Origin: Trypanosoma brucei
Taxonomy: Eukaryota
NCBI GenBank assembly: GCA_000002445.1
Contig: CM000208.1
Span: 768,001 to 832,000, forward strand
Direction: 5' to 3'
DNA: 64,000 bases
Part shown: positions 7,760 through 26,817 of the stretch, piece after piece
Layout of the letters: each line of letters starts with the position of its first letter
Numbering within the stretch: position 1 is the stretch's first letter
The notes under the pieces: model-generated
Told to the model about the DNA's origin: nothing
Seen by the model: the letters and a program-made list of their open reading frames with translations, nothing else
The model's database searches: none
Translations under genes and position numbers: made by a program

Positions 7760-8893
7760 GTGACAAATCATGAAAACTGCTATTATTGTTATTTTTTATT
7801 TATTACTTCTTCATTTCCACTCAAAATAATATTTTTTCATGCACTTTCCATCAGTTGCAACCCTTCCTCACCATGTCACACCAAAACGGCCACCACTCCA
7901 ACAAGGTTTTCTATTCGGGTCACTGTGGAACTACGAATCCGACACAACTGGGGCAGCACGTGGCAGGACCAAGTGAAAGGCAACGCGTGCATTGAAACAG
8001 TGCTTGATGTGGGCCTCTTGATATTTGTCTGCAGAGTTTTGTCTTTGTTCACACTTCGGTGGTGTTGCCTTCATGTGCATGTTCCCCGCATTTGTTACTT
8101 ACTCTCGTCTATTGCCTCTCTTTGGTTTTTAACAATAAGGCAATATCATCAAATACTGTGCAGGGATGGACATAAAAAGGAAACTGAATTTGACCTCGTT
8201 GGGGTGTGGGTTTCATTTGAGAGGGACTGTAGAAGTCTCTCGGTAAGTCAAGGTTGGATCGCACTGCTACGGTACTACCTGCAAGTAACGGAACTCATCC
8301 TGTGCAACCTGCAGAAGGATAAAGAAATTTGGGATAATGCCCACACGTTGTTAAATACTGCATTTACTTTTGTGCAGCTGCGGGAGTACTATGAGTCGAG
8401 ACATAGAAGTGACGAAGGTGCACTCGCTGCTGATATACGAAAGTTCTGCCGGAACAACCTAAACAATTTGGTTCCTAATATACGACGGCTCTCACAGTCC
8501 TTTCCATCCGCACAGGATAGCACGGAGGTTAGGAAGCTGTCCCAACGAGTTGAGTGGAGAGACCTTCTACACAAACTCCCAGAGTCAATTAATTCTGTGT
8601 ATTTTGAAGCAGAAGTGAGGGAAGCCAAGGAGTTTGCCAAAAGGGGCGTCGAGGGCAGTGAAAAGGCTCGGGCAGAGTCATTGAAGAAGCATCTCGAACA
8701 AATTGACAATATGTCGACCGAGGACACTTTGAGGAATATCAATAAAACCATCAACCTCTCTGGTGGGTGCTGGTATAAATGCCCTAAAAGACACCTTTAT
8801 GTTGTCGGAGAGTGTGGCAGCCCTGCAGGGGAAGGAATAGGTGGGGTGGGCCACATCTCATTCCCTGGCAATACATCTGTTGGGAGGTTTTAG
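7760..8893 (+). CDS. Hypothetical protein with a C-terminal RZ-finger-like motif (copy A); start unresolved.
   Basis: The ORF opens at a GTG, and there is no in-frame ATG for about 950 nt. The first 160 codons are C/W/L/R-rich and look like translated UTR. From about 8315 onward the sequence is protein-like, ending 'CWYKCPKRHLYVVGECGSPAGEGIGGVGH'. That resembles the RZ zinc finger of ZNFX1/RNF213 ('CPNGH.Y.IG.CG...IGG..H') but lacks the internal CxxC pair. It is duplicated at 24081..25136. Confidence 0.4.
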   Translation: MTNHENCYYCYFLFITSSFPLKIIFFHALSISCNPSSPCHTKTATTPTRFSIRVTVELRIRHNWGSTWQDQVKGNACIETVLDVGLLIFVCRVLSLFTLRWCCLHVHVPRICYLLSSIASLWFLTIRQYHQILCRDGHKKETEFDLVGVWVSFERDCRSLSVSQGWIALLRYYLQVTELILCNLQKDKEIWDNAHTLLNTAFTFVQLREYYESRHRSDEGALAADIRKFCRNNLNNLVPNIRRLSQSFPSAQDSTEVRKLSQRVEWRDLLHKLPESINSVYFEAEVREAKEFAKRGVEGSEKARAESLKKHLEQIDNMSTEDTLRNINKTINLSGGCWYKCPKRHLYVVGECGSPAGEGIGGVGHISFPGNTSVGRF

Positions 8894-10574
8894 GAACCGG
8901 GAGGGTGTCATAGTGGACGAACTATTTCCTGTTGTAATGATAAGTGGAATGGAATATAATGTAATATGTGATGATGTGAAGTATGGAGCATAATTTGAAT
9001 GGAACTAATGATGGAATGGGGTTTTTGTGGATAGGAGTGCATCTCCTGTTGATCATGCAATCCATATCCCTTAATGAGGGCACAGCACTCCTTATTAGTA
9101 CTTTTACTTTTACTTTGCTTTTGCTTTTTCTTTTTTTGCTTTTGCTTTTGCTTGTTCTGTGAATGCTATCATTGGGTGTCTTATGCCCTTGCTTCTGTCG
9201 TTTGGCTGCTTTTGTTACTTTGTCAGCCACTTACTATATTACCATCCTTTACCTTAATTCTACCTCTCTTGCACACATACCACAACTGGGATACTAAAAG
9301 GGGGGTTATTGAACGGTAACAAACAAAATAACTCGTGCTCTGATTAATTGCATCGCAACGTGGTGGTTTCGAGATGTTCCATCCCCAATTGGTGGCGGGT
9401 GGTGCCAATCGCGCTGCACCGGCAGAGGAGCTACGCGACACAGCCGAGACGGTGCAGATATCGTCTTTGGCATTGCTCAAAATGCTGATGCACGGGCGCG
9501 CTGGGGTGCCGCTCGAGGTAATGGGTTTGATGATTGGTGAGTTGATTGACGACTATACGGTCCGTGTATCTGATGTCTTCTCCATGCCTCAAACGGCCAC
9601 GGGTCAATCCGTTGAAGCTGTGGACCCAGAGTATCAAGTTCATATGTTAGACAAACTCTCCGTGGTGGGTCGACCGGAAAAAGTTGTTGGGTGGTACCAC
9701 AGTCACCCTGGTTTCGGCTGCTGGCTTTCTGGTGAGGATGTAATGACGGCGAGCAGCTATGAGCAACTGACGCCGCGCAGCGTGTCGGTAGTGATCGACC
9801 CTATCCAATCGGTCCGCGGCAAAGTAGTAATTGACGCCTTCCGCACCACGAAGGACCCGCATACGGGGCCGCGAATCATGTTCCAAGAGCCACGACAGAC
9901 AACAAGCAACATCGGGTGGCTGACGCGACCTTCTCCTATTGCTCTCACCCGTGGGTTGGATCGTGACTATTACAGTCTTCCCATTACCTTCCGCAAGAAA
10001 AACCACGAACTTGCGCTACTCCTCAACGTCTACAAGAAGGGTTGGCAGGAGGGTTTCCGATTAGAAAACATGACACGTTTTGATCGCAATACGGTGCGAG
10101 AGAAGATGCGTGCGCTGGCGTCGCTTGCCGTCCAGTCGGAGCGATTCATTGTTCAGGGTCTCGATGAAGATGATGTAGGCAATGTCGGTCGAGCAAATCC
10201 CATTGCGCATCTCCAATCCGAATCGGAGGGCCTAATCAACGCGAGTCTTAACCAATCCATAGGAGCGATGATTAATGGGGTTGTCTTCTGAGGAAACAGG
10301 GTACATTGCGTGTGCTCCAGCTATTACTGACCATACTTTTTATATGCGCTACCGTATTGATTTTTTATCACCCTCTCTATAACGTTTACGGGGTGTTATG
10401 CTCCTTTTCTGCACTCCCGTTTCTGTGACAATGTGGCGTGATTACAATCAGCACAGGATGGCATTTGCTAGTGATGTGGTGTCATCTTCGTGAATGGCAT
10501 GTCATTTGTTTGTGGTGGGGTAATTACTCGTCCTGAATTTCCTAGTGATTCTACAAACATATCTCTGCAATACC
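7845..10574 (+). repeat. Segmental direct repeat, copy A (2,730 bp: RZ-like gene, RPN11 and its 3' flank).
   Basis: Aligns base-for-base with 24088..26817 at a constant offset of 16,243 bp. I saw about 6 mismatches over the unit. The left boundary lies next to a T12 run and a (TA)12 microsatellite. The right boundary is about 35 bp upstream of the next ORF. Confidence 0.9.
9374..10291 (+). CDS. RPN11: 26S proteasome regulatory subunit RPN11 (PSMD14), a JAMM/MPN+ metalloisopeptidase (copy A).
   Basis: ATG start. Contains the JAMM motif 'GWYHSHPGFGCWLSGEDV'. Shows PSMD14-like blocks along its length ('VIDPIQSVRGKVVIDAFR', 'EPRQTTSNIGWLTRPS'). Confidence 0.9.
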   Translation: MFHPQLVAGGANRAAPAEELRDTAETVQISSLALLKMLMHGRAGVPLEVMGLMIGELIDDYTVRVSDVFSMPQTATGQSVEAVDPEYQVHMLDKLSVVGRPEKVVGWYHSHPGFGCWLSGEDVMTASSYEQLTPRSVSVVIDPIQSVRGKVVIDAFRTTKDPHTGPRIMFQEPRQTTSNIGWLTRPSPIALTRGLDRDYYSLPITFRKKNHELALLLNVYKKGWQEGFRLENMTRFDRNTVREKMRALASLAVQSERFIVQGLDEDDVGNVGRANPIAHLQSESEGLINASLNQSIGAMINGVVF

Positions 10575-10749
10575 TCACTTCCATATTCCTTTAATTGCTC
10601 TAATCCCGGTGATTGCTCGTTGCGATCCCAGTGTCGTGTGCCCAACGCACTTAGTGACACTCAGGACAAGTGGTGAAGGGGGCGAAAAGCTTTTATTCTA
10701 CCGTCTCCGATTGGGTGAAGCAGGGTATCGAAACTATCGTCTACTGCAT

Positions 10750-13700
10750 ATGTATGCAATGCCCGGTAATAGTGGTGATCTACAGTGTGATGATGGTAAG
10801 AAAAGACATATACCGCCATTGTCACTGTTGCTGTCGGGCTACGGGAGCAGTGAAGGCAGGGAACTGGACACATCGTATACACCAAAGCAGTGGCTGTGGT
10901 TCCTCTATGTGACATCATGGGCTCGACCGTTTTTTACTTATGCATCATCTGGTGGTGCGTCCGAAGCGACGGAGGGCAGCAGTGATAACAGAAGTGGGAG
11001 CGCATATTGGGGCAGGTTATCATTTGACGAGCTGTTGAAGTTGTCGGGGTCCCCCATTCCTCCCGCCATGGTGTCGCTTTGGATGGGGCTTTGCATGCCG
11101 ACAGATGACGTCGTGCAAGAGCTGCGAATAATGACGGAGGGGAAGGCAGAAGGTCGGCAGCGCATATATCCTTTCCTGCCTCGTGTTGCAGAGTCAACAT
11201 TTGGTCGTGCTCTGCGATCGTTGGCCGTGCGACAGCATATATCCTCCTGGATGCCTTCTCATGCCGGTGACGTGTGTGCCGCCCTTGACGTTCTGGTGCG
11301 AGACACACTTGAAGTTATTCAGAACTCTGCCGATGTGCGGAAGACTGCGAGAGTACGGTGTGAGGAAAGAGATGCGTCAGGGGAGGAAGCACTTGAGGGG
11401 GCTTTCCGGAGCATGCTTTCTGCATCTACTACCGCACCGAAGGTGGTGGAAGCGACAACTTACCGTCCTCTGTTCGATGTGAAGGCATCCATACCCGAGG
11501 GTGGAACTGCGCAAGTCCTTATCAGGGTGGCTAATGCTGCACGTTTGTTTGCCGCCCTTTCGGTGGAGGCATTTGGTCGTGTCAAATCTGAATGCGCCGT
11601 CCTACTTCTTGCTCATATCAATCAGCGCGATGCACCAGAGCATGTGGATGCCCGTGCGTACGGTGTGGTGACTGGCGTTGTGGAGTATGCTATGGCTTAT
11701 CGGTATTGCAGGGATGATGGTACGGGACGGTGCCCACTGACGTGCGCTGCTTTGCTGTTGCATCGTCTCGTTGAGCTGCAGGGAATTGTGGAAAAGGATA
11801 CTGCTGCTGGTGACAGGTGTATGGGGATGGCTGTATCAGCTTCTCGGTTCGCAAACATGACTGTGGCGTGTATACAGGAACTGCTCTTCTGTGTGGTGGC
11901 AGGTGATACAGTAAGGTGGCACAGGGAACACCAGCCCGATGGTGTCTCTGTCTGTCCCACCGCTGCACGTACCTTAACGCTGCATGAAACAGATTGTCTA
12001 CTACAAGTCTTCATCCCGGCACTGCTCCAGCAGGTGGGGTTTGAGTGGCCCTGGTCAGAGTCACTCCGGCATGCCAAGATGCTTGATCGGGCACGAACGC
12101 AACATATTGTGATGGAAGATGGTGTCAGGTTGGATAGCCGATCGGTGTTTGAGGAGCTTTTGGTCTCAGTTGCGCGACGAACGTACGGACTGCGCCTTCG
12201 AGCCATTCTCCCTCAGAGCTTCGACGTCATTGCGGAAAATATTTTTGTTTCGATCCACGATGTGCCGAATGAGGGTAAAAGCAGTGGAGGGAATCCTGAG
12301 AAGGTGGCTGATAATTCGTCTTCTCGCTTCGCACTACCTCTGTATTACCGTACTGCCGGTGAGGTCTTGCTAGAATATTTTGATCGCTGCGGTCCAAGTG
12401 GAATAACAGCGGAGGAAACAGAGCGGGTGTTGAGACGGGCCACCGATGTGCAGCCTATGGTTGTGCAATTGCAGGCACTGGGAGGGGACACAAACGGTGG
12501 CATTACTGATTGTGTCAGCTACTGTGGTGAGCTTTCTCGCACAGTATATTTTTCCGCGCGTGAGAAGGAGCGTTTACTGCAGAGGTACCGCTGTGAAGTG
12601 CTGCTGGCCTCCCTCGTGGTGTACACGCAACTGAGAACGGTGAGTGTCGTGCAACAGCTCACGCGGCAACTCGCCCCATTGTTTGAGCAGCTGCTTCTGC
12701 CGCTTGCGCATGAGCGTACCCTCAGTCGTTGTCCTGTGATTGCATCCAGGAAGGGGGACGGGGTTGATGACAACGGCACACCGTTGGTGGACTTAACACC
12801 GGAATTCAAGATGCTGGTAGACGAAATTCATTATGAGTTCTACCCTCTGGAATGGGTACCCGAAGCCGTTGATGCCCATATTCGGCAAGAGTGTGGTGTC
12901 CGGGAAAAAGAAGGAGCACCGTACCACGAAGGCGGGAATGGTCCCCCCTGTTTTGCCCAATACTCTCTATTTGCAGCTATTGCTCATCAGTTTGGCCTCG
13001 TTCTGGAGGGGAACCCGCGTGGATTCCGTGGTGGCGACGGCAGCAGCAGTGAAGTACGCACGAAGGCATACCGTTTCTTCACACTGATGTTGCTCAACAA
13101 TCTCGGGGATGCAGTATCTTCCTCATGTGAGTTAGATGGGGCTGCAGCGCTGGCCGCAACGCGGCGTGTTAAGGATTGTCAGGACGGTAGCGAAAATTGT
13201 AAACAACGGCAAGCGGCTGTGAGGCAACGCGGCGGCGCATCGTTTCACAGTGTGGTGAGCGCGTGCGATGTTGTGGTTACTATGACACAGTGCTTACTTC
13301 CCGCACACTTATCATCACACCCACGTATGGCAACCACTGGTTCTATGAGCAACGAGTGGATGCGCCGGGTTGGGGAGTGGACACGATCGGCGTACTCGAA
13401 GTACACCGCGTATCAGCAGCAGGTGCATGGTTTGGATCTTCCTGTGCCGCTCATCTCTCTCTATAATAGTCTCACCTTTGACTCCGTTCCCCTTGCTCGT
13501 GAAACCATCCGCGCCGTACGGAGCCGCCTCCTTGAGAAGATGAGTGTGGTGACTGCGTCGCCGCCAGGGGATGTAGAAACTGCGGGTAAACAGCTCCTGG
13601 AGCAGCACCTTTCCAGCCTAACCGTAACACTCACAGCTGTTGGGCTTCTGCCGCTCTGTGTGCGTGGGGGAAGCCATGTACCCTGCGCAACTCAACTATT

Positions 13701-13764
13701 GTGGGCATCCCCATTTTTCTCCCACGAACTGCTGCACTGCGGTCGATACGAAGTAAGTGTATAG
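10750..13764 (+). CDS. Large hypothetical protein (about 1,000 aa).
   Basis: Long ORF with protein-like composition throughout. The track start 10609 is a GTG, so I use the first in-frame ATG at 10750 (MYAMPGNSGD...). No recognisable domain. Confidence 0.55.
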   Translation: MYAMPGNSGDLQCDDGKKRHIPPLSLLLSGYGSSEGRELDTSYTPKQWLWFLYVTSWARPFFTYASSGGASEATEGSSDNRSGSAYWGRLSFDELLKLSGSPIPPAMVSLWMGLCMPTDDVVQELRIMTEGKAEGRQRIYPFLPRVAESTFGRALRSLAVRQHISSWMPSHAGDVCAALDVLVRDTLEVIQNSADVRKTARVRCEERDASGEEALEGAFRSMLSASTTAPKVVEATTYRPLFDVKASIPEGGTAQVLIRVANAARLFAALSVEAFGRVKSECAVLLLAHINQRDAPEHVDARAYGVVTGVVEYAMAYRYCRDDGTGRCPLTCAALLLHRLVELQGIVEKDTAAGDRCMGMAVSASRFANMTVACIQELLFCVVAGDTVRWHREHQPDGVSVCPTAARTLTLHETDCLLQVFIPALLQQVGFEWPWSESLRHAKMLDRARTQHIVMEDGVRLDSRSVFEELLVSVARRTYGLRLRAILPQSFDVIAENIFVSIHDVPNEGKSSGGNPEKVADNSSSRFALPLYYRTAGEVLLEYFDRCGPSGITAEETERVLRRATDVQPMVVQLQALGGDTNGGITDCVSYCGELSRTVYFSAREKERLLQRYRCEVLLASLVVYTQLRTVSVVQQLTRQLAPLFEQLLLPLAHERTLSRCPVIASRKGDGVDDNGTPLVDLTPEFKMLVDEIHYEFYPLEWVPEAVDAHIRQECGVREKEGAPYHEGGNGPPCFAQYSLFAAIAHQFGLVLEGNPRGFRGGDGSSSEVRTKAYRFFTLMLLNNLGDAVSSSCELDGAAALAATRRVKDCQDGSENCKQRQAAVRQRGGASFHSVVSACDVVVTMTQCLLPAHLSSHPRMATTGSMSNEWMRRVGEWTRSAYSKYTAYQQQVHGLDLPVPLISLYNSLTFDSVPLARETIRAVRSRLLEKMSVVTASPPGDVETAGKQLLEQHLSSLTVTLTAVGLLPLCVRGGSHVPCATQLLWASPFFSHELLHCGRYEVSV

Positions 13765-14121: not shown

Positions 14122-16479
14122 ATGAACAGTTTCGTGTCTCATTCCTCTCCTCCCCTTTCCGCTGGAATAAATGAGATGTCACTGGCGGAATTGCGGTTAG
14201 GTATTCACGAATTCCTTCGGTCAAGCGGAGCTTTGGGTTCTCTCAAAACACAACTACGTGGTGTCATTACATCAGAGTTGTTAAAGCGGAGACGGACAAA
14301 GGATATTACCGCCGGTGAATGCAACAGTCGGGAGCTGGACGCGGGGGCTGATGTTAGTAATAAGGATGGAGAAGGCGAAAGCGCATGGATACAGCGTCTC
14401 GCCGATGCTATAGTGGAGCAGCATCTGCGGCAAACGGGGCGTGCCTTTTCGTTGGCGATTTTCAGTAGTGAGGCAGATGTAAGCTTCAGAGCAACTGGGG
14501 ACGATGCCCTCGCAGTACTCCTCCATCTTGACAACCCCGTATTGACTACGGCGGGTTGGCGTGCGGGACCGGACTCGACTCCTGCCAATGCGAAGGTTGC
14601 ACATCACCGGAGTAGCAGTTTTTTACAGATTCTTACAGCTGCACACTTGAGGCATGTGGGTGATAGTCGAGGACAGCGACCTAGATACGCTGTCGGTACT
14701 CAAACTGATAGTGACTTTGGTAGTGAGTTTTCGGGGGAATCCGCGAAGCCACCGGTTGAGGTTCGCCTTGCAGCTGTGGATGCAAAGTATGCTCTTTGCT
14801 TCGCCCGTATGGAACATTCGACACGCGAGGAACTGGACCGGCACATGGAAACTTACAGAGAGGAATTGAAGCTGCAGATGGAACAAACATACCAGCAGCG
14901 GCTTCGTGCTTTCGAGCAGCAAAAGCTTTTGGAGGTGCGGCGGGAGGCGGAAGAGCATTTCAGACTACTACTTCAACACAAGATGGAGGAGCAACGGGAA
15001 ATAGAAAGGCTAAGTGCTCAACGTGTGGAGGCTGAACGCGTCCGGCTCTCGCAGGCACGTGAAGATATACAACTACAGCGTGTTGAATTGGAGCGACGGC
15101 AGCGTGAAATACAGCTCCTGTTGGACGAGCGTGATAAGGCGACGGTCGAGATGGAAGGCCGCTTGCACGACGCGAAGCAGCAAATACGCGTCTTAACATC
15201 ACAACTGCAACAGTTTGAGGAGCTCTGTGCCTCCCGACTCGCTGAGGCTGAAGCAGCACGTGACCGTGAGATGCGGCGGGTGGGAGATATTCGGCGGCTT
15301 CAAGCAGAGCATGTGGCAGAGTTACAACTAAAGGATGAGGAAATTTGTCGTTTGCGTTTCCGACTTAAATCACTGGCAGCTTCCAACACCGGCGGCAGTT
15401 GGCATCACAACGCCCTGAACACCACGGAGAATGGGGTTATTATGGTGCACGAAGTTCCCTCAGGAGCGACCCGACAACATAAGCAAGGAAGCCGACAGCA
15501 GGCGTCCCATGAAGCAACGTACCTTGCGTCAACACCTGTTCCGCGTGAGGCAGCATGGCAGTCCATTTGGCACTCAACTGATGTTGTGGGACCCACAGAA
15601 GTCGTAACAGCACCGTGGAGGGGGGAAGAGGGAGTAGTTGAACGGCGCTCACATTTGGTGGATCCTTCCTTGCATTCCAGTGATGTTCACCGGCAGGGAA
15701 AGCGTGGTAGTAGGGACACTAACGATGCGGCCATCGAAAGTCAAGAAAGGAGCATGAGCATTCAACCTCGAAGAGCCGCAACCACGGAAAGTGGCAGCAC
15801 TGTAACCACCACTAGCTCCAGAGTGGGGTCTCGCGTGCTTCTTGCTGATGCTGCTGTCGCCAAGTCAGCACACGAATCTGCAACTGCGGAAAAGCAGGAA
15901 ACTCCGGTGCCGCAGGAGTGCGGATCTTCAGAGAGATCAGGCCGGGCAGGAAATGATGAGAAGGATGAGGTGGCGCATAGCAAGAGCTCGTCAGGCAGCA
16001 CCAAGGTGACCAGGAGCAACACAACGGGAGAAATTAACGGTGAAGTGGACCGTTCGCACCCACCTGTCGTGCAGGGGTCGCACTCGGAGGGTCCCCTCTC
16101 CCTTAATGCATCTGAGGGCAATACCGCCATTGCTTCCTCTTCCAAAATGTCATCTGTGCGTTCACACAAGAGCCAGTCTGTCACAACGCCACGTGCAGCC
16201 GCGTCCCACGCGCTAAGTGATTTGGTGGGACGAATTAACGCTGAGGAGGAGGACAAACGGAAAGAAATTGAGAAAGAGGAAGAGACGAACCGAGGTGGCA
16301 TTAAGTGGGCCGCCACCTCTCAGCACAACTTGCTGGTGCAACGCCAAACAGCGATGGAAGAGTTTTCTGGGCGTGAGGAGAGTAATGTGGTTTTGTTGGA
16401 CCGCACGACCATATCCGATGATGGCAGTGAGGATGATATTTTATATCGAAAAGGAGATGACAGTGATGACTCCATATGA
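14122..16479 (+). CDS. Hypothetical coiled-coil protein with a Ser-rich C-terminal half.
   Basis: ATG start. Residues of roughly 230-420 form a long heptad-like E/R/Q/L-rich stretch (LKLQMEQTYQQRLRAFEQQKLLEVRREAEE...). The C-terminal 300 residues are S/T/E-rich and low-complexity, ending in an acidic 'DDSDDS' tail. Confidence 0.6.
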   Translation: MNSFVSHSSPPLSAGINEMSLAELRLGIHEFLRSSGALGSLKTQLRGVITSELLKRRRTKDITAGECNSRELDAGADVSNKDGEGESAWIQRLADAIVEQHLRQTGRAFSLAIFSSEADVSFRATGDDALAVLLHLDNPVLTTAGWRAGPDSTPANAKVAHHRSSSFLQILTAAHLRHVGDSRGQRPRYAVGTQTDSDFGSEFSGESAKPPVEVRLAAVDAKYALCFARMEHSTREELDRHMETYREELKLQMEQTYQQRLRAFEQQKLLEVRREAEEHFRLLLQHKMEEQREIERLSAQRVEAERVRLSQAREDIQLQRVELERRQREIQLLLDERDKATVEMEGRLHDAKQQIRVLTSQLQQFEELCASRLAEAEAARDREMRRVGDIRRLQAEHVAELQLKDEEICRLRFRLKSLAASNTGGSWHHNALNTTENGVIMVHEVPSGATRQHKQGSRQQASHEATYLASTPVPREAAWQSIWHSTDVVGPTEVVTAPWRGEEGVVERRSHLVDPSLHSSDVHRQGKRGSRDTNDAAIESQERSMSIQPRRAATTESGSTVTTTSSRVGSRVLLADAAVAKSAHESATAEKQETPVPQECGSSERSGRAGNDEKDEVAHSKSSSGSTKVTRSNTTGEINGEVDRSHPPVVQGSHSEGPLSLNASEGNTAIASSSKMSSVRSHKSQSVTTPRAAASHALSDLVGRINAEEEDKRKEIEKEEETNRGGIKWAATSQHNLLVQRQTAMEEFSGREESNVVLLDRTTISDDGSEDDILYRKGDDSDDSI

Positions 16480-20400: not shown

Positions 20401-21112
20401 CTCGGGCCCCATGCTGTCGGTTGTCGCTGCCACCACCCGTCACGTTGATACACTGAGCGCGCAGGCGGTGGCAAATAGGGTGGACGATGTTGATTTAAAG
20501 GGAGTGACACTTGAATTATTGCGAGCTGAGGACAGGACTAGTGTCAAAGTGCACCCCGCCGTAAGCTGGAACACTGGGGCAGAAAACAGTGCCGAGAAGG
20601 ATGGTGTTGGAGGCGAACAAACTGATTTAAACGATGTACCTGTCACTGAGGTCATGCGTCACCTGCAGCCGAGAGATGACAGTCCGGAGAACAGGAAACA
20701 AACACCTCCTCGTCTCATGCCGCACTATGTGGTGACCCACGCATCCAGCACGGCTACTGCAACCCGAGAGGAGCGGTCGGGTGCCCCGGTGGGTAGGCGA
20801 CCAGCGGTTCAACAAGCTGCTGATCCTGCGCCCCTGCGACGGGCAGTGGTGGGAGGAGGGAGAGATGGAAGAGGTAGAGGTAGAGCAGTTGCTTTGGCTG
20901 AACCACAGCGTCCTACCGCTGCGCGACCAGGGGCGGCACTGCTGCCAAGTGTGAATGATGTGGGACCGGAACCACGAAACAATACAGTCACAGCGACAAT
21001 GGTGTCAGGAGAAGCGGGTACCGCACATCGCCATCATCTCCCAGTAGGCACAGAATTCCTGTCCCTGCGGCAACCGGCACTCGCCAATGCCCAGTCTAAA
21101 CCGAAAGACTAA
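17441..21112 (+). CDS. Large hypothetical protein (about 1,220 aa) with a central coiled coil.
   Basis: The track ORF starts at a GTG (17207), so I use the first in-frame ATG at 17441 (MPLPSTLPSPAPPSPP...). It has a Pro/Ser-rich N-terminus and a coiled-coil region at about residues 430-740. Near the C-terminus is an RGG-like 'GGGRDGRGRGRAV' stretch. Confidence 0.55.
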   Translation: MPLPSTLPSPAPPSPPVATSKLDLDINGLQKILQQIDESFHASDDDVDRRLRLQHLERQQVALQQLCDAALQQQDGQAVPPALDNSTDVRPITYKVLDTDVVSTPRSIDAFNPSHNTRETLQSIARKTETCLRSPHAPLVAPPRLLSPSRVTSMPHMGAGTTAQGEVKTPDHAGVATAKIFPLRSPELPPTYHDGAAVQEDRDLVESFLGDGRAKAQHPYAVEEGGVHRVRGSTGGWQQRGIHTLRGVRSCRLMAPRMSSGTDRTASPEHFDIGEDEKLIRQLIGRNETRVKGSTNRNNHCFQTAPTKGENVAAHSCGTEGQIHRHSTVPSASGRQPAQGDAHPTSTSMAHNPHKEDCAARNGHWVRGKSVKELTQKMECLARHLVKCMRDRLQLQYRVDRLEGMLDVANTEVGRLRRTLEQREEGTLTESAWRATINAKERELRVCEDEIRRLRILVEQQVTRQGCGLARQNEAAALQQAKADLECMMQELGVAHMRRREMEEEFERTKQALDAAESHIQMLDKRLAQAERAAALARVWDVSGDLNVQVGDVPSAPASTALQKGLPEAKLKLQANVGNVDSWTHDAQREIARLTAHIENLALKHAESDRHAELRLSNARKESDVLRRQCNELRVEVRSHEVQIETLRRDRVAVGLREGQLRQQLLDLRDDAVLLADLLQATTKNAKGMLQILGTDDVEHRQSKAAVERFVAGVLCDFDALGRFFGALQCIDIGESRCQMEERVSVSEATAARRDFVLKAVEDAMERPSQGFGPATLSSSKPPCVETLQAAHESHRPSVAADCILATGTRPPEDRKPPTTSSTPSPAHPVLRWVADQNISLEGVTAPDEGNQPQNGAKMAESRASVMEGCTGRNLEQQSSNDFYALSGTNTDTEPKISLFPTTSWPSPQGARRGSPPSRLSDQAESHVLIQDSARSRISTGISFLSKAPDGSGTVASEGIPHLQQPLSHSMVSSQSHMVEETSDERSSGPMLSVVAATTRHVDTLSAQAVANRVDDVDLKGVTLELLRAEDRTSVKVHPAVSWNTGAENSAEKDGVGGEQTDLNDVPVTEVMRHLQPRDDSPENRKQTPPRLMPHYVVTHASSTATATREERSGAPVGRRPAVQQAADPAPLRRAVVGGGRDGRGRGRAVALAEPQRPTAARPGAALLPSVNDVGPEPRNNTVTATMVSGEAGTAHRHHLPVGTEFLSLRQPALANAQSKPKD

Positions 21113-21474
21113 AGTAGCCGTGTAGCGCTCGCTGTATTCGGTGTGTTTCCGTGGGCAATGCCATCCGGGTATGTATGGCCAAGAGAATAGAGTTGTTATC
21201 CGGACAGTCACCTATATTTTTATGTTCCGTTTATCATAACACTGTTTTCTGTTATTGCTTGCGTACTCGTTAGTCCGCTGTGTGCGGTCCCTGCAAACCG
21301 TGTACGTGTTGAAGTGGAGCAAGGAAGGGAGCTGGTCTCATTTCCATGCGGCACGGCGGGCGAAACAGAGTTTATTCCACTGCTACCATCTGTGTTTTTT
21401 CTTCATGTATTCAAATTCTTGTTCTTTAAAGGTGAGACCTTCGCAGTGGCAGCTGGCTGTGCAAGGCGCACTCC

Positions 21475-23796
21475 ATGTCGGGTCGGCGTGTCACAGTGGA
21501 GAACACGGCATCACCATCGCCTCATTCGAGTGCAAGCCAACAACCACTGCAAGATATCATATCATCACCGGAGCGGCAATGCCACTCATTTCATGGATAT
21601 TATGGTGTGGGAGGTCAGTGTGGTACGCACTATCCATTGGTGGAGGCGACGGCGATGAACTTTAGTGCCGCGTTAGGTGAAGGTACTTCTAGCAGCAATG
21701 CCGTCTCCCCCGAGCAGGACCCACTACTAGAGGGACTGCGTGAGAAGGAAAGGCAGTTCGACGCTCGAGTTGCCGCACTGGACAAAATGTTGATATGCGC
21801 ACAACAGGGCTGCACCCAGCGGGATAGTCTGATTGACAGATTGAACACTGAAGTGGGTCGATTGCGGAAGCAACTTCAGGAATCGAAGGGCACAGGAAGT
21901 AAGCCCAAGGAGATGCGGGGAAGTGCCCTCGAAGGAGACACTACAGCTCTCGAGGAGGCTCGGGCAAAAATTGAGGAGATGAGTAACAGGTTGCGTGAAA
22001 AGAGCCGCCGCTTAATGGCACTGGAAAGGCAATTGGGGTCGCGTGGCGTCGACACCGAAGAGGGTGCAGTGGTTGGAAGAACGGCACCACGAAAGAACCT
22101 AGTCGAAGAGCAAGGACAGCAGAAGCGAGCTCGCTACGCCGCCACTCTACGGTCGTTGCAAAAGGAAGTTGGTCTGTTGGAACAGAAGTATCGTGTGATG
22201 ATGAAGGAGAAAGAGTCTCTCGCGGAGGAGAACCAAAGCCTTCGCCGGAGGGTTGATCGCATTCAGGAGGACGCAGAGGCGGAGCTAGTGGGAGCTGTGA
22301 GAGCGACACACAAGGCGTTGGGTGAAAAAAAAGATCTTGAAACACAGGTCATGGCGACGCGGTTGAGTATGGCGAGACTCCTGCATGTTCTCAGCGAGGT
22401 TCCAGAGATGAGCCGGTATCTGCGCGTTGACGGAGTGACCGGAGACCTCTTGTTCATCGGTTACGCGGCTTTACCGTTGAAAGAGACTGCAGATGGAAGT
22501 GAAGTTGGACGATCTCACCGTGGCGGCTTATCCTTGTCTGCCATGGGCACTGGTGTTGACGACGGAATTTACGGGGGAAGCGCAAAAGCGCAGTCGCACA
22601 ACATTTATCTGAACGGGAAGTGGTGCAACCGTCTACGCGAGATCGTTGACGATGAGAATTGTTTCTTTCGCCGTGCAAAGGTTCATACAGGGGAATTGGA
22701 GGATGTGACGCACTCTCTTGTGGGTGAAAGTGTTCCACGAGTACCGCTCCCAAGCGATGTGCTACAAGGGCGTCAACGCGACAGGGACTTCTGGATTCCG
22801 TATGGTGTTTTCGTGGAAGCGCAGAAGTTCAAAAATCGCTATTTTCCTTCCATGAATGTCGAGTGTTTCTATCCGTTTCTCTTTTCCATCAATGTTCTAT
22901 GGAACAAGCGTATGATGCAGCGGGTGACAACCGCAACAAAGCGCGTTAGTGAGCAACAGGAGAGGCGGCGGAAGCAAATGCTGAGATGTATGAAAAGGGG
23001 AGGGGAACACTATCTTGGATCTCTCTCTCCCTCTACTGGCAGTTTCTCCCCATCCCCGTCAGTAGTGGCACTGCGACGCCAGTTGCAACTTCTGCGTCGT
23101 GAGGTACAGCGGCGCGTTATAGGGCGAAGCAGTTTAGACTTGTTTCACCGTTACGACCTGCTGGTAAGACGCACTCTGCAATGCTTGGAGAAAACGCACA
23201 GGGGTTATATTACACCCTTGAACCAAGCACAACAGAGTGGCACAGCTGGGTCCGTGTCCTCAGACACTGACTTTACTGGTGAACATGTCAATGTGTCGCC
23301 GCTGTGGCGTGACGAATCACCCGAAGAAATGAAGATGAATAACGGCAGCGATGTCAGTGGAAGTAAAGAAAGTCATTACCGCTGTTCCCCATCGATACCA
23401 TTGGCGGGGTTGCTGAACATCAGCCAGCGTGCGTCAACCCATGTCCTTGCATCTTGCAGGCACTTGCGAGAACTCCTCGAGGCCCTGCGCAAGAAACACC
23501 GGTGGTTCTCCCTCAGTGACCATCACTATGAAGGAGATGAGGGTGTGCGGTTAGCCTGTGGGGCAGAACGCACATGCGTGCCCGTATCTACCCTTCACCA
23601 CCTTATTGAAGGTGTGGTAGACTTTGTGGGGGAGGTACAGCAAGAGGTACTGAAAGCGCACAATGCTGTGGAAAAATACTGCACCCACCAGAGGGATGGA
23701 AATGACGTGGTGCTTTCTGCACTCAACAACCAAAGAGCTTCCCGTATTATCGAAGGAGTTTGGAACGACATTCCGTGTGAGGGGGTCAGTGAGTAG
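21475..23796 (+). CDS. Hypothetical coiled-coil protein (773 aa).
   Basis: ATG start. Residues of roughly 80-290 form an E/K/R/L-rich coiled coil (LREKERQFDARVAALDKML...). The rest is protein-like without a recognisable domain. Confidence 0.6.
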   Translation: MSGRRVTVENTASPSPHSSASQQPLQDIISSPERQCHSFHGYYGVGGQCGTHYPLVEATAMNFSAALGEGTSSSNAVSPEQDPLLEGLREKERQFDARVAALDKMLICAQQGCTQRDSLIDRLNTEVGRLRKQLQESKGTGSKPKEMRGSALEGDTTALEEARAKIEEMSNRLREKSRRLMALERQLGSRGVDTEEGAVVGRTAPRKNLVEEQGQQKRARYAATLRSLQKEVGLLEQKYRVMMKEKESLAEENQSLRRRVDRIQEDAEAELVGAVRATHKALGEKKDLETQVMATRLSMARLLHVLSEVPEMSRYLRVDGVTGDLLFIGYAALPLKETADGSEVGRSHRGGLSLSAMGTGVDDGIYGGSAKAQSHNIYLNGKWCNRLREIVDDENCFFRRAKVHTGELEDVTHSLVGESVPRVPLPSDVLQGRQRDRDFWIPYGVFVEAQKFKNRYFPSMNVECFYPFLFSINVLWNKRMMQRVTTATKRVSEQQERRRKQMLRCMKRGGEHYLGSLSPSTGSFSPSPSVVALRRQLQLLRREVQRRVIGRSSLDLFHRYDLLVRRTLQCLEKTHRGYITPLNQAQQSGTAGSVSSDTDFTGEHVNVSPLWRDESPEEMKMNNGSDVSGSKESHYRCSPSIPLAGLLNISQRASTHVLASCRHLRELLEALRKKHRWFSLSDHHYEGDEGVRLACGAERTCVPVSTLHHLIEGVVDFVGEVQQEVLKAHNAVEKYCTHQRDGNDVVLSALNNQRASRIIEGVWNDIPCEGVSE

Positions 23797-24080
23797 CACC
23801 AATGGAGTCGGAACCGCATTTGGCGGTGGTATATCCTGAAGTGATATTGTGGTGCATGGATGAAATGGTGATGAGGACATTGCGTGCCCCAGCGTTCTCC
23901 CTCCGGCACCATTTTCAGTTTTACAGTAAACACATACACCTCTATTGTATTTTCCTCTACGTTGGAACAAGCATGAGTGCTCAGACCATGCACCATCAGC
24001 TGCGGCGTTGCCTGAATCCCACGCGGCCTTCATGAGGTAAATCCTCACATTATGGAGGACGTATCGAGAAAACGAGCTAA

Positions 24081-25136
24081 GTGTCATTTTCCATCAGTTG
24101 CAACCCTTCCTCACCATGTCACACCAAAACGGCCACCACTCCAACAAGGTTTTCTATTCGGGTCACTGTGGAACTACGAATCCGACACAACTGGGGCAGC
24201 ACGTGGCAGGACCAAGTGAAAGGCAACGCGTGCATTGAAACAGTGCTTGATGTGGGCCTCTTGATATTTGTCTGCAGAGTTTTGTCTTTGTTCACACTTC
24301 GGTGGTGTTGCCTTCATGTGCATGTTCCCCGCATTTGTTACTTACTCTCGTCTATTGCCTCTCTTTGGTTTTTAACAATAAGGCAATATCATCAAATACT
24401 GTGCAGGGATGGACATAAAAAGGAAACTGAATTTGACCTCGTTGGGGTGTGGGTTTCATTTGAGAGGGACTGTAGAAGTCTCTCGGTAAGTCAAGGTTGG
24501 ATCGCACTGCTACGGTACTACCTGCAAGTAACGGAACTCATCCTGTGCAACCTGCAGAAGGATAAAGAAATTTGGGATAATGCCCACACGTTGTTAAATA
24601 CTGCATTTACTTTTGTGCAGCTGCGGGAGTACTATGAGTCGAGACATAGAAGTGACGAAGGTGCACTCGCTGCTGATATACGAAAGTTCTGCCGGAACAA
24701 CCTAAACAATTTGGTTCCTAATATACGACGGCTCTCACAGTCCTTTCCATCCGCACAGGATAGCACGGAGGTTAGGAAGCTGTCCCAACGAGTTGAGTGG
24801 AGAGACCTTCTACACAAACTCCCAGAGTCAATTAATTCTGTGTATTTTGAAGCAGAAGTGAGGGAAACCAAGGAGTTTGCCAAAAGGGGCGTCGAGGGCA
24901 GTGAAAAGGCTCGGGCAGAGTCATTGAAGAAGCATCTCGAACAAATTGACAATATGTCGACCGAGGACACTTTGAGGAATATCAATAAAACCATCAACTT
25001 CTCTGGTGGGTGCTGGTATAAATGCCCTAAAAGACACTTTTATGTTGTCGGAGAGTGTGGCAGCCCTGCAGGGGAAGGAATAGGTGGGGTGGGCCACATC
25101 TCATTCCCTGGCAATACATCTGTTGGGAGGTTTTAG
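24081..25136 (+). CDS. Hypothetical protein with a C-terminal RZ-finger-like motif (copy B of 7760..8893); start unresolved.
   Basis: Near-identical to copy A over the shared region, with 3 nucleotide differences that are all nonsynonymous (A to T, L to F, L to F). The ORF again opens on a GTG that lies outside the repeat, so the N-terminus differs from copy A. This supports the view that the 5' portion is not translated as drawn. Confidence 0.4.
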   Translation: MSFSISCNPSSPCHTKTATTPTRFSIRVTVELRIRHNWGSTWQDQVKGNACIETVLDVGLLIFVCRVLSLFTLRWCCLHVHVPRICYLLSSIASLWFLTIRQYHQILCRDGHKKETEFDLVGVWVSFERDCRSLSVSQGWIALLRYYLQVTELILCNLQKDKEIWDNAHTLLNTAFTFVQLREYYESRHRSDEGALAADIRKFCRNNLNNLVPNIRRLSQSFPSAQDSTEVRKLSQRVEWRDLLHKLPESINSVYFEAEVRETKEFAKRGVEGSEKARAESLKKHLEQIDNMSTEDTLRNINKTINFSGGCWYKCPKRHFYVVGECGSPAGEGIGGVGHISFPGNTSVGRF

Positions 25137-26817
25137 GAACCGGGAGGGTGTCATAGTGGACGAACTATTTCCTGTTGTAATGATAAGTGGAATGGAATAT
25201 AATGTAATATGTGATGATGTGAAGTATGGAGCATAATTTGAATGGAACTAATGATGGAATGGGGTTTTTGTGGATAGGAGTGCATCTCCTGTTGATCATG
25301 CAATCCATATCCCTTAATGAGGGCACAGCACTCCTTATTAGTACTTTTACTTTTACTTTGCTTTTGCTTTTTCTTTTTTTGCTTTTGCTTTTGCTTGTTC
25401 TGTGAATGCTATCATTGGGTGTCTTATGCCCTTGCTTCTGTCGTTTGGCTGCTTTTGTTACTTTGTCAGCCACTTACTATATTACCATCCTTTACCTTAA
25501 TTCTACCTCTCTTGCACACATACCACAACTGGGATACTAAAAGGGGGGTTATTGAACGGTAACAAACAAAATAACTCGTGCTCTGATTAATTGCATCGCA
25601 ACGTGGTGGTTTCGAGATGTTCCATCCCCAATTGGTGGCGGGTGGTGCCAATCGCGCTGCACCGGCAGAGGAGCTACGCGACACAGCCGAGACGGTGCAG
25701 ATATCGTCTTTGGCATTGCTCAAAATGCTGATGCACGGGCGCGCTGGGGTGCCGCTCGAGGTAATGGGTTTGATGATTGGTGAGTTGATTGACGACTATA
25801 CGGTCCGTGTATCTGATGTCTTCTCCATGCCTCAAACGGCCACGGGTCAATCCGTTGAAGCTGTGGACCCAGAGTATCAAGTTCATATGTTAGACAAACT
25901 CTCCGTGGTGGGTCGACCGGAAAAAGTTGTTGGGTGGTACCACAGTCACCCTGGTTTCGGCTGCTGGCTTTCTGGTGAGGATGTAATGACGGCGAGCAGC
26001 TATGAGCAACTGACGCCGCGCAGCGTGTCGGTAGTGATCGACCCTATCCAATCGGTCCGCGGCAAAGTAGTAATTGACGCCTTCCGCACCACGAAGGACC
26101 CGCATACGGGGCCGCGAATCATGTTCCAAGAGCCACGACAGACAACAAGCAACATCGGGTGGCTGACGCGACCTTCTCCTATTGCTCTCACCCGTGGGTT
26201 GGATCGTGACTATTACAGTCTTCCCATTACCTTCCGCAAGAAAAACCACGAACTTGCGCTACTCCTCAACGTCTACAAGAAGGGTTGGCAGGAGGGTTTC
26301 CGATTAGAAAACATGACACGTTTTGACCGCAATACGGTGCGAGAGAAGATGCGTGCGCTGGCGTCGCTTGCCGTCCAGTCGGAGCGATTCATTGTTCAGG
26401 GTCTCGATGAAGATGATGTAGGCAATGTCGGTCGAGCAAATCCCATTGCGCATCTCCAATCCGAATCGGAGGGCCTAATCAACGCGAGTCTTAACCAATC
26501 CATAGGAGCGATGATTAATGGGGTTGTCTTCTGAGGAAACAGGGTACATTGCGTGTGCTCCAGCTATTACTGACCATACTTTTTATATGCGCTACCGTGT
26601 TGATTTTTTATCACCCTCTCTATAACGTTTACGGGGTGTTATGCTCCTTTTCTGCACTCCCGTTTCTGTGACAATGTGGCGTGATTACAATCAGCGCAGG
26701 ATGGCATTTGCTAGTGATGTGGTGTCATCTTCGTGAATGGCATGTCATTTGTTTGTGGTGGGGTAATTACTCGTCCTGAATTTCCTAGTGATTCTACAAA
26801 CATATCTCTGCAATACC
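24088..26817 (+). repeat. Segmental direct repeat, copy B.
   Basis: See copy A. The flanks are unique on both sides (the 3' UTR of the 21475..23796 gene on the left, an AT-rich spacer on the right). Confidence 0.9.
25617..26534 (+). CDS. RPN11: 26S proteasome regulatory subunit RPN11 (copy B).
   Basis: Protein identical to copy A (305 aa). I saw one synonymous nucleotide difference (gatcgc versus gaccgc), and the JAMM motif is intact. Confidence 0.9.
   Translation: MFHPQLVAGGANRAAPAEELRDTAETVQISSLALLKMLMHGRAGVPLEVMGLMIGELIDDYTVRVSDVFSMPQTATGQSVEAVDPEYQVHMLDKLSVVGRPEKVVGWYHSHPGFGCWLSGEDVMTASSYEQLTPRSVSVVIDPIQSVRGKVVIDAFRTTKDPHTGPRIMFQEPRQTTSNIGWLTRPSPIALTRGLDRDYYSLPITFRKKNHELALLLNVYKKGWQEGFRLENMTRFDRNTVREKMRALASLAVQSERFIVQGLDEDDVGNVGRANPIAHLQSESEGLINASLNQSIGAMINGVVF

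What the first reader, a model, noticed from the sequence alone, without database searches (positions are those of the whole stretch)
7845..26817. A 2.73-kb two-gene module (RZ-like gene plus RPN11) is present twice as direct repeats bracketing a 13.5-kb block of four large genes
Bases 7845-10574 and 24088-26817 align at a fixed 16,243-bp offset with only about 6 mismatches. The three mismatches in the first gene are all nonsynonymous. I found one synonymous mismatch in RPN11 and two in the 3' flank, so the two RPN11 proteins are identical. A recent segmental duplication of an essential proteasome lid gene is unusual. Such direct repeats in trypanosomatids are substrates for homologous recombination or amplification that could delete or circularise the intervening 10750-23796 gene block. 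It could also be an assembly artefact, with two haplotypes or allelic copies laid in series.
Basis: seen in the sequence. Interest (0 to 1): 0.6.

Follow-up and report, generated by a model that had tools for sequence, protein, structure and literature searches.

The report
Old RPN11 duplication kept identical
Trypanosoma brucei really does carry two near-identical copies of a 2.7-kb piece holding the proteasome gene RPN11 plus a dead fragment of a helicase gene. The pair is already annotated and looks old but kept alike by gene conversion, so it is a tidy but fairly ordinary case of concerted evolution.

Summary
The repeat is real: 7845-10574 and 24088-26817, offset 16,243 bp, six mismatches, no indels, and the only repeat in the window.

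The window is T. brucei chromosome 10. Both copies, each with its own flanks, occur in T. b. gambiense DAL972 and T. equiperdum IVM-t1. Both RPN11 genes are already annotated in TREU927 and DAL972, so this is not haplotypes laid in series.

Copy 2 sits at the ancestral site: T. grayi, T. theileri, T. conorhini and T. vivax have p773-(helicase)-RPN11-p135. Copy 1 is a derived insertion between a small gene (p115) and CBP110. A T. congolense contig starts with the RPN11 3' end directly upstream of CBP110, so the duplication probably predates the brucei/congolense split.

Within a strain the copies differ at 0-6 sites. Between strains they differ at 13-22 sites (3-9 between the window and T. equiperdum OVI), and both copies share strain-specific indels. 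That is the pattern of gene conversion.

The 'RZ-like gene' is a pseudogene, the last ~240 codons of a 2095-aa ZNFX1-like helicase. It has no usable ATG, has lost half its zinc finger, and carries premature stops in other strains.

Interest is low to moderate.

The parts
7845..10574 (+). Repeat copy 1. This is the derived copy, inserted between the small gene p115 and CBP110.
   Evidence: establish the repeat. T. grayi and T. cruzi have GUF1-p115-CBP110 with no RPN11 between them, and T. conorhini has no RPN11 in the 625 bp upstream of CBP110. T. congolense has the RPN11 3' end directly upstream of CBP110.
24088..26817 (+). Repeat copy 2, at the ancestral position (p773 - helicase relic - RPN11 - p135).
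   Evidence: The same gene order, p773 - (helicase) - RPN11 - p135, is found in T. grayi, T. vivax, T. theileri and T. conorhini.
8174..8893 (+). Pseudogene relic, copy 1: the last ~240 codons of a ZNFX1-like SF1 helicase, with a degenerate RZ finger. The stop-free frame extends back to 7760, but its only in-frame ATG lies 60 codons before the stop.
   Evidence: tblastn against the T. grayi 2095-aa helicase matches residues 1847-2085 at 36% identity, E 6e-34. The T. congolense ORF matches at 48%. The Pfam RZ match covers only profile positions 8-32 of 54, at 28.5 bits. Eight residues holding the second CxxC are missing. Variable codons between strains are 15 nonsynonymous to 1 synonymous, with stop codons in DAL972 and OVI.
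24417..25136 (+). Pseudogene relic, copy 2. It probably forms part of the 3' UTR of the p773 mRNA.
   Evidence: Searches show the same homology as copy 1. Logan contig L020 runs without a break from 21440 (35 bp before the p773 ATG) to 25366, across the repeat boundary and the relic.
9374..10291 (+). RPN11 copy 1 (305 aa). By literature numbering this is Tb927.10.2980, directly upstream of CBP110 (Tb927.10.2990).
   Evidence: Pfam JAB match, E 8e-31. It is 100% identical to T. brucei RPN11 Q8WRU0/AAL72634.1. Gene IDs come from PMC3694164 and PMC8311971.
25617..26534 (+). RPN11 copy 2 (305 aa), with a protein identical to copy 1.
   Evidence: The public records carry two RPN11 entries per genome: EAN77723.1 and EAN77728.1, and CBH15288.1 and CBH15294.1.
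9101..9300 (+). Pyrimidine-rich (CTTTTG)n tract and spliced-leader acceptor of RPN11. The AG is at 9298-9299, giving a 5' UTR of about 74 nt. The same features sit at 25344-25543 in copy 2.
   Evidence: Tandem-repeat scan. Logan contig L007 begins with TACTATATTG, the last 10 nt of the spliced leader (SL sequence from my own knowledge), joined to window position ~9300.
7230..7565 (+). p115, a small conserved gene upstream of copy 1. It marks the left side of the insertion site.
   Evidence: tblastn finds it between GUF1 and CBP110 in T. grayi (58% identity) and T. cruzi (45%). It is called as a 115-aa gene in other assemblies.
10750..13764 (+). CBP110, a nuclear cap-binding complex subunit. 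It is the first gene of the unique 13.5-kb middle block.
   Evidence: Pfam CBP110 match, 1360 bits. 100% identical to the TREU927 protein.
14122..23796 (+). Three further unique genes of the middle block: p785 (14122-16479), p1301 (17207-21112) and p773 (21475-23796).
   Evidence: Orthologues lie in the same order in T. congolense, T. grayi, T. cruzi, T. theileri and T. conorhini.
26943..27350 (+). p135, the conserved small gene that follows RPN11 at the ancestral site.
   Evidence: tblastn gives 59-63% identity directly downstream of RPN11 in T. vivax, T. grayi and T. theileri. A 135-aa gene is called downstream of RPN11 in T. conorhini.
3950..6271 (+). GUF1/LepA-type GTPase, the left landmark of the locus.
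   Evidence: Pfam GTP_EFTU, EFG_C and LepA_C matches.

Best explanation
This is a genuine dispersed duplication on T. brucei chromosome 10. It is old but has been kept homogeneous.

Ancestral order (shown by synteny): GUF1 - p115 - CBP110 - p785 - p1301 - p773 - [ZNFX1-like helicase] - RPN11 - p135.

A copy of RPN11, with the 3' end of the upstream helicase and 283 bp of 3' flank, was placed 16 kb upstream, between p115 and CBP110. This happened in the lineage leading to T. brucei and T. congolense. The dating is inferred from a single T. congolense contig end.

Since then the two 2.73-kb copies have repeatedly exchanged sequence by gene conversion. They are therefore 99.8-100% identical within a genome, while the same unit differs at 13-22 sites between most strains. 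The pattern is shown; the mechanism is inferred.

The helicase itself was lost from T. brucei. Only its last ~240 codons survive in both copies. This relic has no start codon, a broken RZ zinc finger and neutral substitution. It now probably serves as 3'-UTR DNA for the upstream genes: partly shown for p773, inferred for p115.

The practical result is two identical RPN11 genes in one polycistronic unit. They share the same splice acceptor, 5' UTR, CDS and first 283 nt of 3' UTR. This amounts to a plain dosage duplicate (inferred).
For: **The repeat is real and not an artefact**
- The repeat and its six mismatches are confirmed.
- Both copies, each with its own flanks, are in DAL972 and in T. 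equiperdum IVM-t1.
- By arithmetic, the short-read OVI contig stops about 30 bp into copy 2.
- Logan contigs cross the copy-1 right junction (L007, which starts with spliced-leader sequence) and the copy-2 left junction (L020).
- Two RPN11 accessions per genome exist for TREU927 and DAL972.

**Ancestral order**
- T. grayi has p773 - 2095-aa helicase - RPN11 - p135, and GUF1 - p115 - CBP110.
- T. cruzi has GUF1 - p115 - CBP110.
- T. theileri, T. conorhini and T. vivax have p773 - RPN11 - p135.

**Age**
- T. congolense contig CAEQ01002324.1 starts with the last 44 codons of RPN11 (95% aa identity). CBP110 follows 417 bp later.
- Synonymous sites between T. brucei and T. congolense are saturated, with pS 0.70-0.77.

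**Concerted evolution**
- Differences between the two copies within a strain are 6, 1 and 0. Between strains they are 13-22, except 3-9 between the window and OVI.
- A 21-bp deletion is in both IVM-t1 copies, and a 1-bp insertion is in both DAL972 copies.
- No copy-specific site is shared across strains.

**Pseudogene status of the upstream ORF**
Against: - The T. congolense evidence is 136 bp at the very end of one contig of a fragmented assembly. I could not see whether T. congolense also has a copy at the p773 site.
- The T. congolense helicase contig (L014) has no RPN11 within 2.4 kb downstream, so its arrangement is not understood.
- Compared with T. congolense, the relic has pN 0.30 and pS 0.76, the same as its functional neighbours. 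The helicase was therefore under selection until fairly recently, yet the truncated form and 330 bp of unrelated sequence to its left are in both copies. This requires either that the truncation was carried from one copy to the other by conversion, or that the present repeat is younger than the first insertion.
- Identity between copies can be inflated by assembly or polishing. IVM-t1 was Pilon-polished (PMC6395869). DAL972 was a whole-genome shotgun ordered against the 927 reference (PMC2854126).
Confidence: 0.68

Rival explanations
1. The duplication is young and specific to the T. brucei group. The unit was copied once, after the helicase had been truncated, and its near-identity simply reflects its age. 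The T. congolense RPN11-CBP110 adjacency would then be a contig chimera or a separate event.
For: Identity is 99.8% even in non-coding parts. Both copies share the same truncated relic and the same 330 bp of unrelated sequence to its left, although the helicase codons look selected until recently. That is simplest if copying followed truncation. The T. congolense evidence is a single contig end.
Against: The T. congolense contig reads cleanly from the RPN11 3' end through a stop codon into CBP110. The spacing (417 bp) is similar to that in T. brucei (459 bp). Even within the T. brucei group, the copies inside one genome (0-6 differences) are closer than the same copy in most other genomes (13-22 differences) and share strain-specific indels. 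A single copying event without later conversion cannot give that pattern, because the duplication has identical boundaries in all the strains.
Confidence: 0.17
2. The duplication is real, but the apparent concerted evolution is an assembly effect. Reads from both copies were merged or polished to a single consensus, so true differences between the copies are hidden.
For: DAL972 shows 0 differences and IVM-t1 shows 1. IVM-t1 was built from about 7,500 PacBio reads plus MiSeq reads and polished with Pilon. The DAL972 authors warn about the limits of assembling repeats.
Against: The window itself resolves six differences between the copies, so its copies were not fully merged. Those six are still fewer than the 18-22 differences from DAL972 or IVM-t1. 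At all six sites one of the window's two alleles is found in other strains, in either copy. This fits polymorphisms shuffled between copies rather than fixed differences between the two.
Confidence: 0.1
3. It is an assembly artefact: two haplotypes or alleles laid in series, with only one copy in the real genome.
For: The near-identity, and the fact that the six differences look like allelic polymorphisms seen in other strains.
Against: The two copies have different sequence on both sides, and the 13.5 kb between them is unique. Haplotypes laid in series would duplicate the flanks as well. All four junctions recur in DAL972 and IVM-t1, and two recur in Logan contigs from other samples. The RPN11-CBP110 junction also exists in T. 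congolense, and the RPN11-p135 junction exists in five other species.
Confidence: 0.03

Closest known systems
Duplicated genes under concerted evolution in T. brucei (Jackson 2007, BMC Evol Biol 7:54, PMC1855330)
   Same: Paralogues cluster by genome rather than by position. Identical coding copies sit in one polycistronic unit, where extra copies are the usual way to raise dosage.
   Different: That study treats head-to-tail arrays and reports that conversion between loci in trans was very rare. It also found T. brucei and T. b. gambiense array sequences usually interspersed rather than clustered by taxon. Here there are only two copies, separated by 13.5 kb of four unrelated genes. The homogenised tract includes about 1.8 kb of pseudogene and intergenic DNA. 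RPN11 is not mentioned in that paper.
Segmental duplications that differ between T. b. brucei and T. b. gambiense (Jackson et al. 2010, PMC2854126)
   Same: Multi-kilobase units of one to three genes are duplicated in the chromosome core.
   Different: Those are tandem and subspecies-specific, and often have divergent copies. This one is shared with identical boundaries by TREU927-like, DAL972 and T. equiperdum genomes, and its copies are near-identical.
ZNFX1 / NFX1-type SF1 helicases with a C-terminal RZ zinc finger (Pfam PF20173; human ZNFX1 and RNF213 carry RZ fingers, from my own knowledge)
   Same: The T. grayi orthologue has AAA_11/AAA_12 helicase domains, a Cys-rich region (seen in the sequence) and a complete RZ finger scoring 79 bits. 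The T. brucei ORF aligns to its last 240 residues.
   Different: The T. brucei sequence lacks the helicase, the Cys-rich repeats, a start codon and half of the RZ finger. It is a relic, not a member.
Direct-repeat-mediated gene amplification or deletion in Leishmania (from my own knowledge; not checked in the paper library)
   Same: Direct repeats of a few kilobases bracket a block of genes in a trypanosomatid.
   Different: No circular or deleted form is seen in any T. brucei-group assembly sampled. The block contains CBP110, reported as essential. The only recombination the data support is non-crossover conversion.

Membership tests
RPN11/PSMD14 (JAMM/MPN+ deubiquitinase of the proteasome lid) | MPN/JAB domain | tested here: met
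   Pfam JAB match, E 8.2e-31, residues 23-134.
RPN11/PSMD14 (JAMM/MPN+ deubiquitinase of the proteasome lid) | JAMM metal-binding motif HxHx7Sx2D | tested here: met
   Read directly from the translation: HSHPGFGCWLSGED in both copies. The motif definition is from my own knowledge.
RPN11/PSMD14 (JAMM/MPN+ deubiquitinase of the proteasome lid) | Orthology to the named T. brucei RPN11 | tested here: met
RPN11/PSMD14 (JAMM/MPN+ deubiquitinase of the proteasome lid) | Both copies expressed and incorporated into the lid | not testable with these tools
   There is only indirect support. A spliced-leader-containing Logan contig runs through RPN11 into CBP110.
ZNFX1-like helicase with RZ-type zinc finger (the 'RZ-like gene') | SF1 helicase core (AAA_11/AAA_12) | tested here: not met
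   The core is present in the T. grayi orthologue. No match exists in the window outside residues 1847-2085, even at E up to 10 near either copy.
ZNFX1-like helicase with RZ-type zinc finger (the 'RZ-like gene') | Complete RZ finger with both Cys pairs | tested here: not met
   The Pfam match covers only profile positions 8-32 of 54, at 28.5 and 27.3 bits, against 79 bits in T. grayi and 69.6 bits in T. congolense. An 8-residue gap removes the 'CPEC' pair.
ZNFX1-like helicase with RZ-type zinc finger (the 'RZ-like gene') | Intact, selectively maintained reading frame with a start codon | tested here: not met
   The only in-frame ATG lies 60 codons before the stop. Variable codons between strains are 15 nonsynonymous to 1 synonymous. 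A TAG is present in both DAL972 copies and a TGA in OVI.
Dispersed duplicate under concerted evolution (gene conversion) | Two copies with distinct flanks, reproducible in independent assemblies | tested here: met
Dispersed duplicate under concerted evolution (gene conversion) | Paralogues within a genome more alike than the same copy between genomes | tested here: met
   0-6 differences within a genome against 13-22 between most genomes (3-9 between the window and OVI). Strain-specific indels are shared by both copies. The caveat is possible merging of the copies during assembly.
Dispersed duplicate under concerted evolution (gene conversion) | Duplication older than the divergence of the lineages compared | tested here: inconclusive
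   Identical boundaries in three other T. brucei-group genomes, and an RPN11-CBP110 adjacency at the end of one T. congolense contig. The second T. congolense site was not seen.
Dispersed duplicate under concerted evolution (gene conversion) | Conversion tracts seen on phased, copy-resolved reads | not testable with these tools
   No read data are available.
Retroposed (RNA-mediated) gene copy | Poly(A) tail, target-site duplication, and no intergenic sequence in the copy | tested here: not met
   The copy contains intergenic DNA and the splice-acceptor region. It has no A-run at its 3' end and no flanking direct repeat.
Assembly artefact (haplotypes in series) | Flanks duplicated together with the unit, and junctions not reproducible | tested here: not met
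   The flanks are unique. The junctions are reproduced in other assemblies and species.

The most novel reading that the evidence does not exclude
A non-tandem gene pair 16 kb apart has been kept 99.8-100% identical over 2.7 kb since before T. brucei and T. congolense separated, a distance at which synonymous sites are saturated. About 1.8 kb of that tract is non-coding or pseudogene DNA. Conversion would also have carried a recent helicase truncation from one copy to the other. Two unrelated upstream genes (p115 and p773) would then have ended up with the same helicase-derived 3' UTR. That would be an unusually clean natural example of long-lasting intrachromosomal conversion between separated repeats in the T. 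brucei chromosome core. It would also show a dead gene recycled as UTR.
Probability: 0.45. Interest if true: 0.4.

Novelty: new member of a known kind. Interest (0 to 1): 0.27.

Why it matters
- **Practical consequences.** RPN11 in T. brucei is a two-copy gene with indistinguishable mRNAs. This affects knock-outs (four alleles), RNAi and CRISPR design, and read mapping.
- **Annotation.** The ORF upstream of each copy should be labelled a pseudogene, not a gene.
- **Evolution.** The locus could serve as a natural gauge of gene-conversion rate between separated repeats in the chromosome core. It also records the loss of a ZNFX1-like helicase that T. grayi still has, and that T. congolense probably still has.

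None of this changes how the proteasome or trypanosome genomes are understood.

Tried and rejected
- **A larger, diverged duplication.** Both repeats are preceded by an ORF of exactly 773 aa (3950-6271 and 21475-23796), so I suspected this. It is a coincidence: one ORF is GUF1/LepA and the other a coiled-coil protein, and blastn shows no similarity.
- **Retroposition or a transposable-element origin.** There is no poly(A), no target-site duplication and no reverse-transcriptase match.
- **Origin of the left 330 bp of the repeat (7845-8173).** The frame is stop-free, but tblastn with the T. grayi and T. congolense helicases found nothing there at E up to 10. It remains unexplained.
- **RNA genes.** Rfam (gathering thresholds on the whole window; E-value mode on 26.8-37.2 kb) and ARAGORN found nothing.
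- **Homologues of the relic.** The word-based protein search found only one T. brucei ORF from a Logan assembly. The full HMMER search was needed to find the T. congolense and T. grayi relatives.
- **A discarded number.** The dN/dS line for the 44-codon RPN11 end was out of frame, so I did not use it.
- **Downstream neighbours.** tblastn of genes downstream of RPN11 in Leishmania, T. vivax and T. theileri found nothing in the window.
- **Literature.** My searches found no paper describing this duplication.

Full report
**1.

At a fixed offset of 16,243 bp, bases 7845-10574 match 24088-26817. That is 2730 bp with six mismatches (8624, 8756, 8795, 10084, 10356, 10453) and no indels. The repeat finder and a blastn self-comparison find no other long repeat in the 64-kb window.

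The three mismatches in the upstream ORF change the amino acid in that frame. The one in RPN11 is synonymous, and the two RPN11 proteins are identical.

**2. Where the window comes from**

- CBP110 (10750-13764) is 100% identical to the T. b. brucei TREU927 protein.
- The RPN11 protein is the named T. brucei RPN11.
- The window is 99.0-99.7% identical to chromosome-10 sequence of T. b. gambiense DAL972 and of two T. equiperdum assemblies.
- In the literature RPN11 is Tb927.10.2980 (PMC3694164) and CBP110 is Tb927.10.2990 (PMC8311971). That numbering fits copy 1.
- NCBI holds two RPN11 entries per genome: EAN77723.1 and EAN77728.1, and CBH15288.1 and CBH15294.1. The duplicate is therefore already annotated.
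- I infer, without checking, that the second gene is Tb927.10.3030.

**3. It is not an assembly artefact**

- Each copy has its own sequence on both sides, and the 13.5 kb between them is unique.
- DAL972 and T. equiperdum IVM-t1 have both copies, at offsets of 16,242 and 16,221 bp and with the same boundaries.
- By arithmetic, the short-read T. equiperdum OVI contig ends about 30 bp inside copy 2. That is what a de Bruijn assembler does at a repeat.
- Logan contig L007 starts with TACTATATTG, the last 10 nt of the spliced leader (SL sequence from my own knowledge). It runs through RPN11 across the copy-1 right boundary into CBP110.
- Logan contig L020 runs from just upstream of p773 across the copy-2 left boundary to 25366.
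- The independence of these assemblies is imperfect. DAL972 contigs were ordered against the 927 reference. IVM-t1 was scaffolded on TREU927 and Pilon-polished.

**4. Which copy is ancestral**

| Species | Gene order seen |
|---|---|
| T. grayi | p773 - 2095-aa helicase - RPN11 - p135; separately GUF1 - p115 - CBP110 - p785 ... p1301 |
| T. cruzi | GUF1 - p115 - CBP110, no RPN11 between |
| T. theileri | p1301 - p773 - RPN11 - p135 |
| T. conorhini (one 20.7-kb contig) | CBP110 - p785 - ... - p773 - RPN11 - p135; no RPN11 in the 625 bp upstream of CBP110 |
| T. vivax | p773 - RPN11 - p135 |

Copy 2 is therefore in the original place. Copy 1 is an insertion between p115 (7230-7565) and CBP110.

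**5. Age of the duplication**

T. congolense contig CAEQ01002324.1 begins with the last 44 codons of RPN11 (95% aa identity) and a stop codon. CBP110 follows 417 bp later, compared with 459 bp in T. brucei. On parsimony the insertion predates the T. brucei/T. congolense split.

Only one RPN11 location per assembly was found for T. vivax, by an exact-protein look-up. That is weak evidence that the event followed the T. vivax split.

Between T. brucei and T. congolense, synonymous sites are saturated (pS 0.70-0.77) and non-coding DNA cannot be aligned. Paralogues that old would be unrecognisable outside the coding sequence unless they had been homogenised.

**6. Concerted evolution**

Across the 2730 bp, the two copies differ at 6 sites in the window, 1 in IVM-t1 and 0 in DAL972. 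The unit differs at 13-22 sites between those strains, and at 3-9 sites between the window and OVI copy 1.

A 21-bp deletion is present in both IVM-t1 copies, and a 1-bp insertion is present in both DAL972 copies. No site distinguishes copy 1 from copy 2 consistently across strains. At all six sites the window's copy-2 allele equals that of OVI copy 1.

Every copy 1 descends from a single insertion. Without conversion, copy 1 and copy 2 in one genome should therefore be at least as different as copy 1 is between genomes. The opposite is seen. Gene conversion is the best explanation, with the caveat that assemblers can merge near-identical repeats.

**7. The 'RZ-like gene' is a pseudogene**

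- The ORF aligns to residues 1847-2085 of the T. grayi helicase (36% identity, E 6e-34). That helicase has AAA_11/AAA_12 domains and a complete RZ finger scoring 79 bits.
- It also aligns to a T. congolense ORF (48% identity) that is open to the start of its contig and has an intact RZ finger scoring 69.6 bits.
- In T. brucei nothing upstream of residue ~1847 survives.
- The only in-frame ATG lies 60 codons before the stop.
- Eight residues containing the second Cys pair are missing, and the Pfam match is half-length at 27-28 bits.
- Among T. brucei-group sequences the frame has 15 nonsynonymous and 1 synonymous variable codons. These include a TAG in both DAL972 copies and a TGA in OVI. RPN11 has 0 nonsynonymous and 5 synonymous.

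**8. An unresolved point**

Against T. congolense the relic has pN 0.30 and pS 0.76, like CBP110 (0.30/0.70), p785 (0.34/0.72) and p773 (0.35/0.77). Those codons were therefore under purifying selection for most of the time since the split, and the truncation is comparatively recent.

Yet the truncated form, plus 330 bp of unrelated stop-free sequence to its left (7845-8173), is in both copies. There are two possibilities:

- The original duplicate carried more of the helicase, and the deletion was later copied across by conversion.
- The present repeat results from a more recent, larger copying event laid over an older one.

I cannot separate these. In addition, the T. congolense helicase contig has no RPN11 within 2.4 kb downstream.

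**9. How it probably works now**

- The RPN11 splice acceptor (AG at 9298-9299) and the pyrimidine tract (9101-9167) lie inside the repeat.
- The repeat ends 283 bp after the stop codon, just before the pyrimidine tracts of CBP110 and of p135.
- In trypanosomes polyadenylation is coupled to the downstream trans-splice site (established knowledge). The two RPN11 mRNAs are therefore expected to be essentially identical, which makes this a dosage duplicate (inferred).
- L020 suggests that the p773 transcript extends through the relic to ~25366. The relic would then act as 3'-UTR DNA for p773. By analogy it would do the same for p115 at copy 1 (inferred).
- Crossing-over between the repeats would delete CBP110, reported as essential. 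This fits the absence of any deleted form in the strains sampled.

**10. Verdict**

The locus is a real, already annotated, probably ancient dispersed duplicate kept alike by gene conversion, carrying a helicase pseudogene. It is a new example of known processes. Its value is mainly practical (annotation, genetics of RPN11), with modest evolutionary interest.

Noticed in passing
window 27351-37150: About 10 kb downstream of p135 is ORF-poor: no stop-free stretch exceeds 326 codons. GC skew turns negative around 28-32 kb. There are no Pfam, Rfam or tRNA hits, and no similarity to what follows RPN11/p135 in T. vivax, T. theileri, T. grayi or Leishmania. The region is conserved at about 99% in DAL972 and IVM-t1. 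I do not know what it is.
   Followed up: partly
L011:2413-8700 (T. grayi); L014:1-2304 (T. congolense); L009, L015, L019: The ZNFX1-like helicase (SF1 helicase, Cys-rich region, RZ finger) has a patchy distribution. It is full length in T. grayi, at least 767 codons with an intact RZ finger in T. congolense, and a 240-codon relic in T. brucei. It is absent from the syntenic gap in T. vivax, T. theileri and T. conorhini. The full HMMER search found no other close relative.
   Followed up: partly
window 7845-8173 and 24088-24416: The left 330 bp of each repeat is stop-free in the relic's frame. It encodes hydrophobic stretches and matches nothing in the T. grayi or T. congolense helicase in any frame. 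Its origin is unknown.
   Followed up: partly
L006:1-3006 (Logan ERR7929157) and L008:1-30: Two Logan contigs join unrelated sequence just upstream of the RPN11 ATG. In L006 a TCP1/Cpn60 gene lies on the opposite strand and the join is at ~9332. In L008 the join is at the splice acceptor, ~9299. These are probably chimeras from RNA-seq assembly, not a third genomic context.
   Followed up: partly
L014:2305-4736 (T. congolense CAEQ01001963.1): The 2.4 kb after the T. congolense helicase stop codon has no RPN11 and no similarity to the window. In T. brucei RPN11 starts 480 bp after the relic, and in T. grayi 1.3 kb after the helicase.
   Followed up: no
window 3950-6271 and 21475-23796: The ORFs preceding the two repeat copies are both listed as exactly 773 aa, but they are unrelated: one is the GUF1 GTPase and the other a coiled-coil protein. 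It is a coincidence of length.
   Followed up: yes
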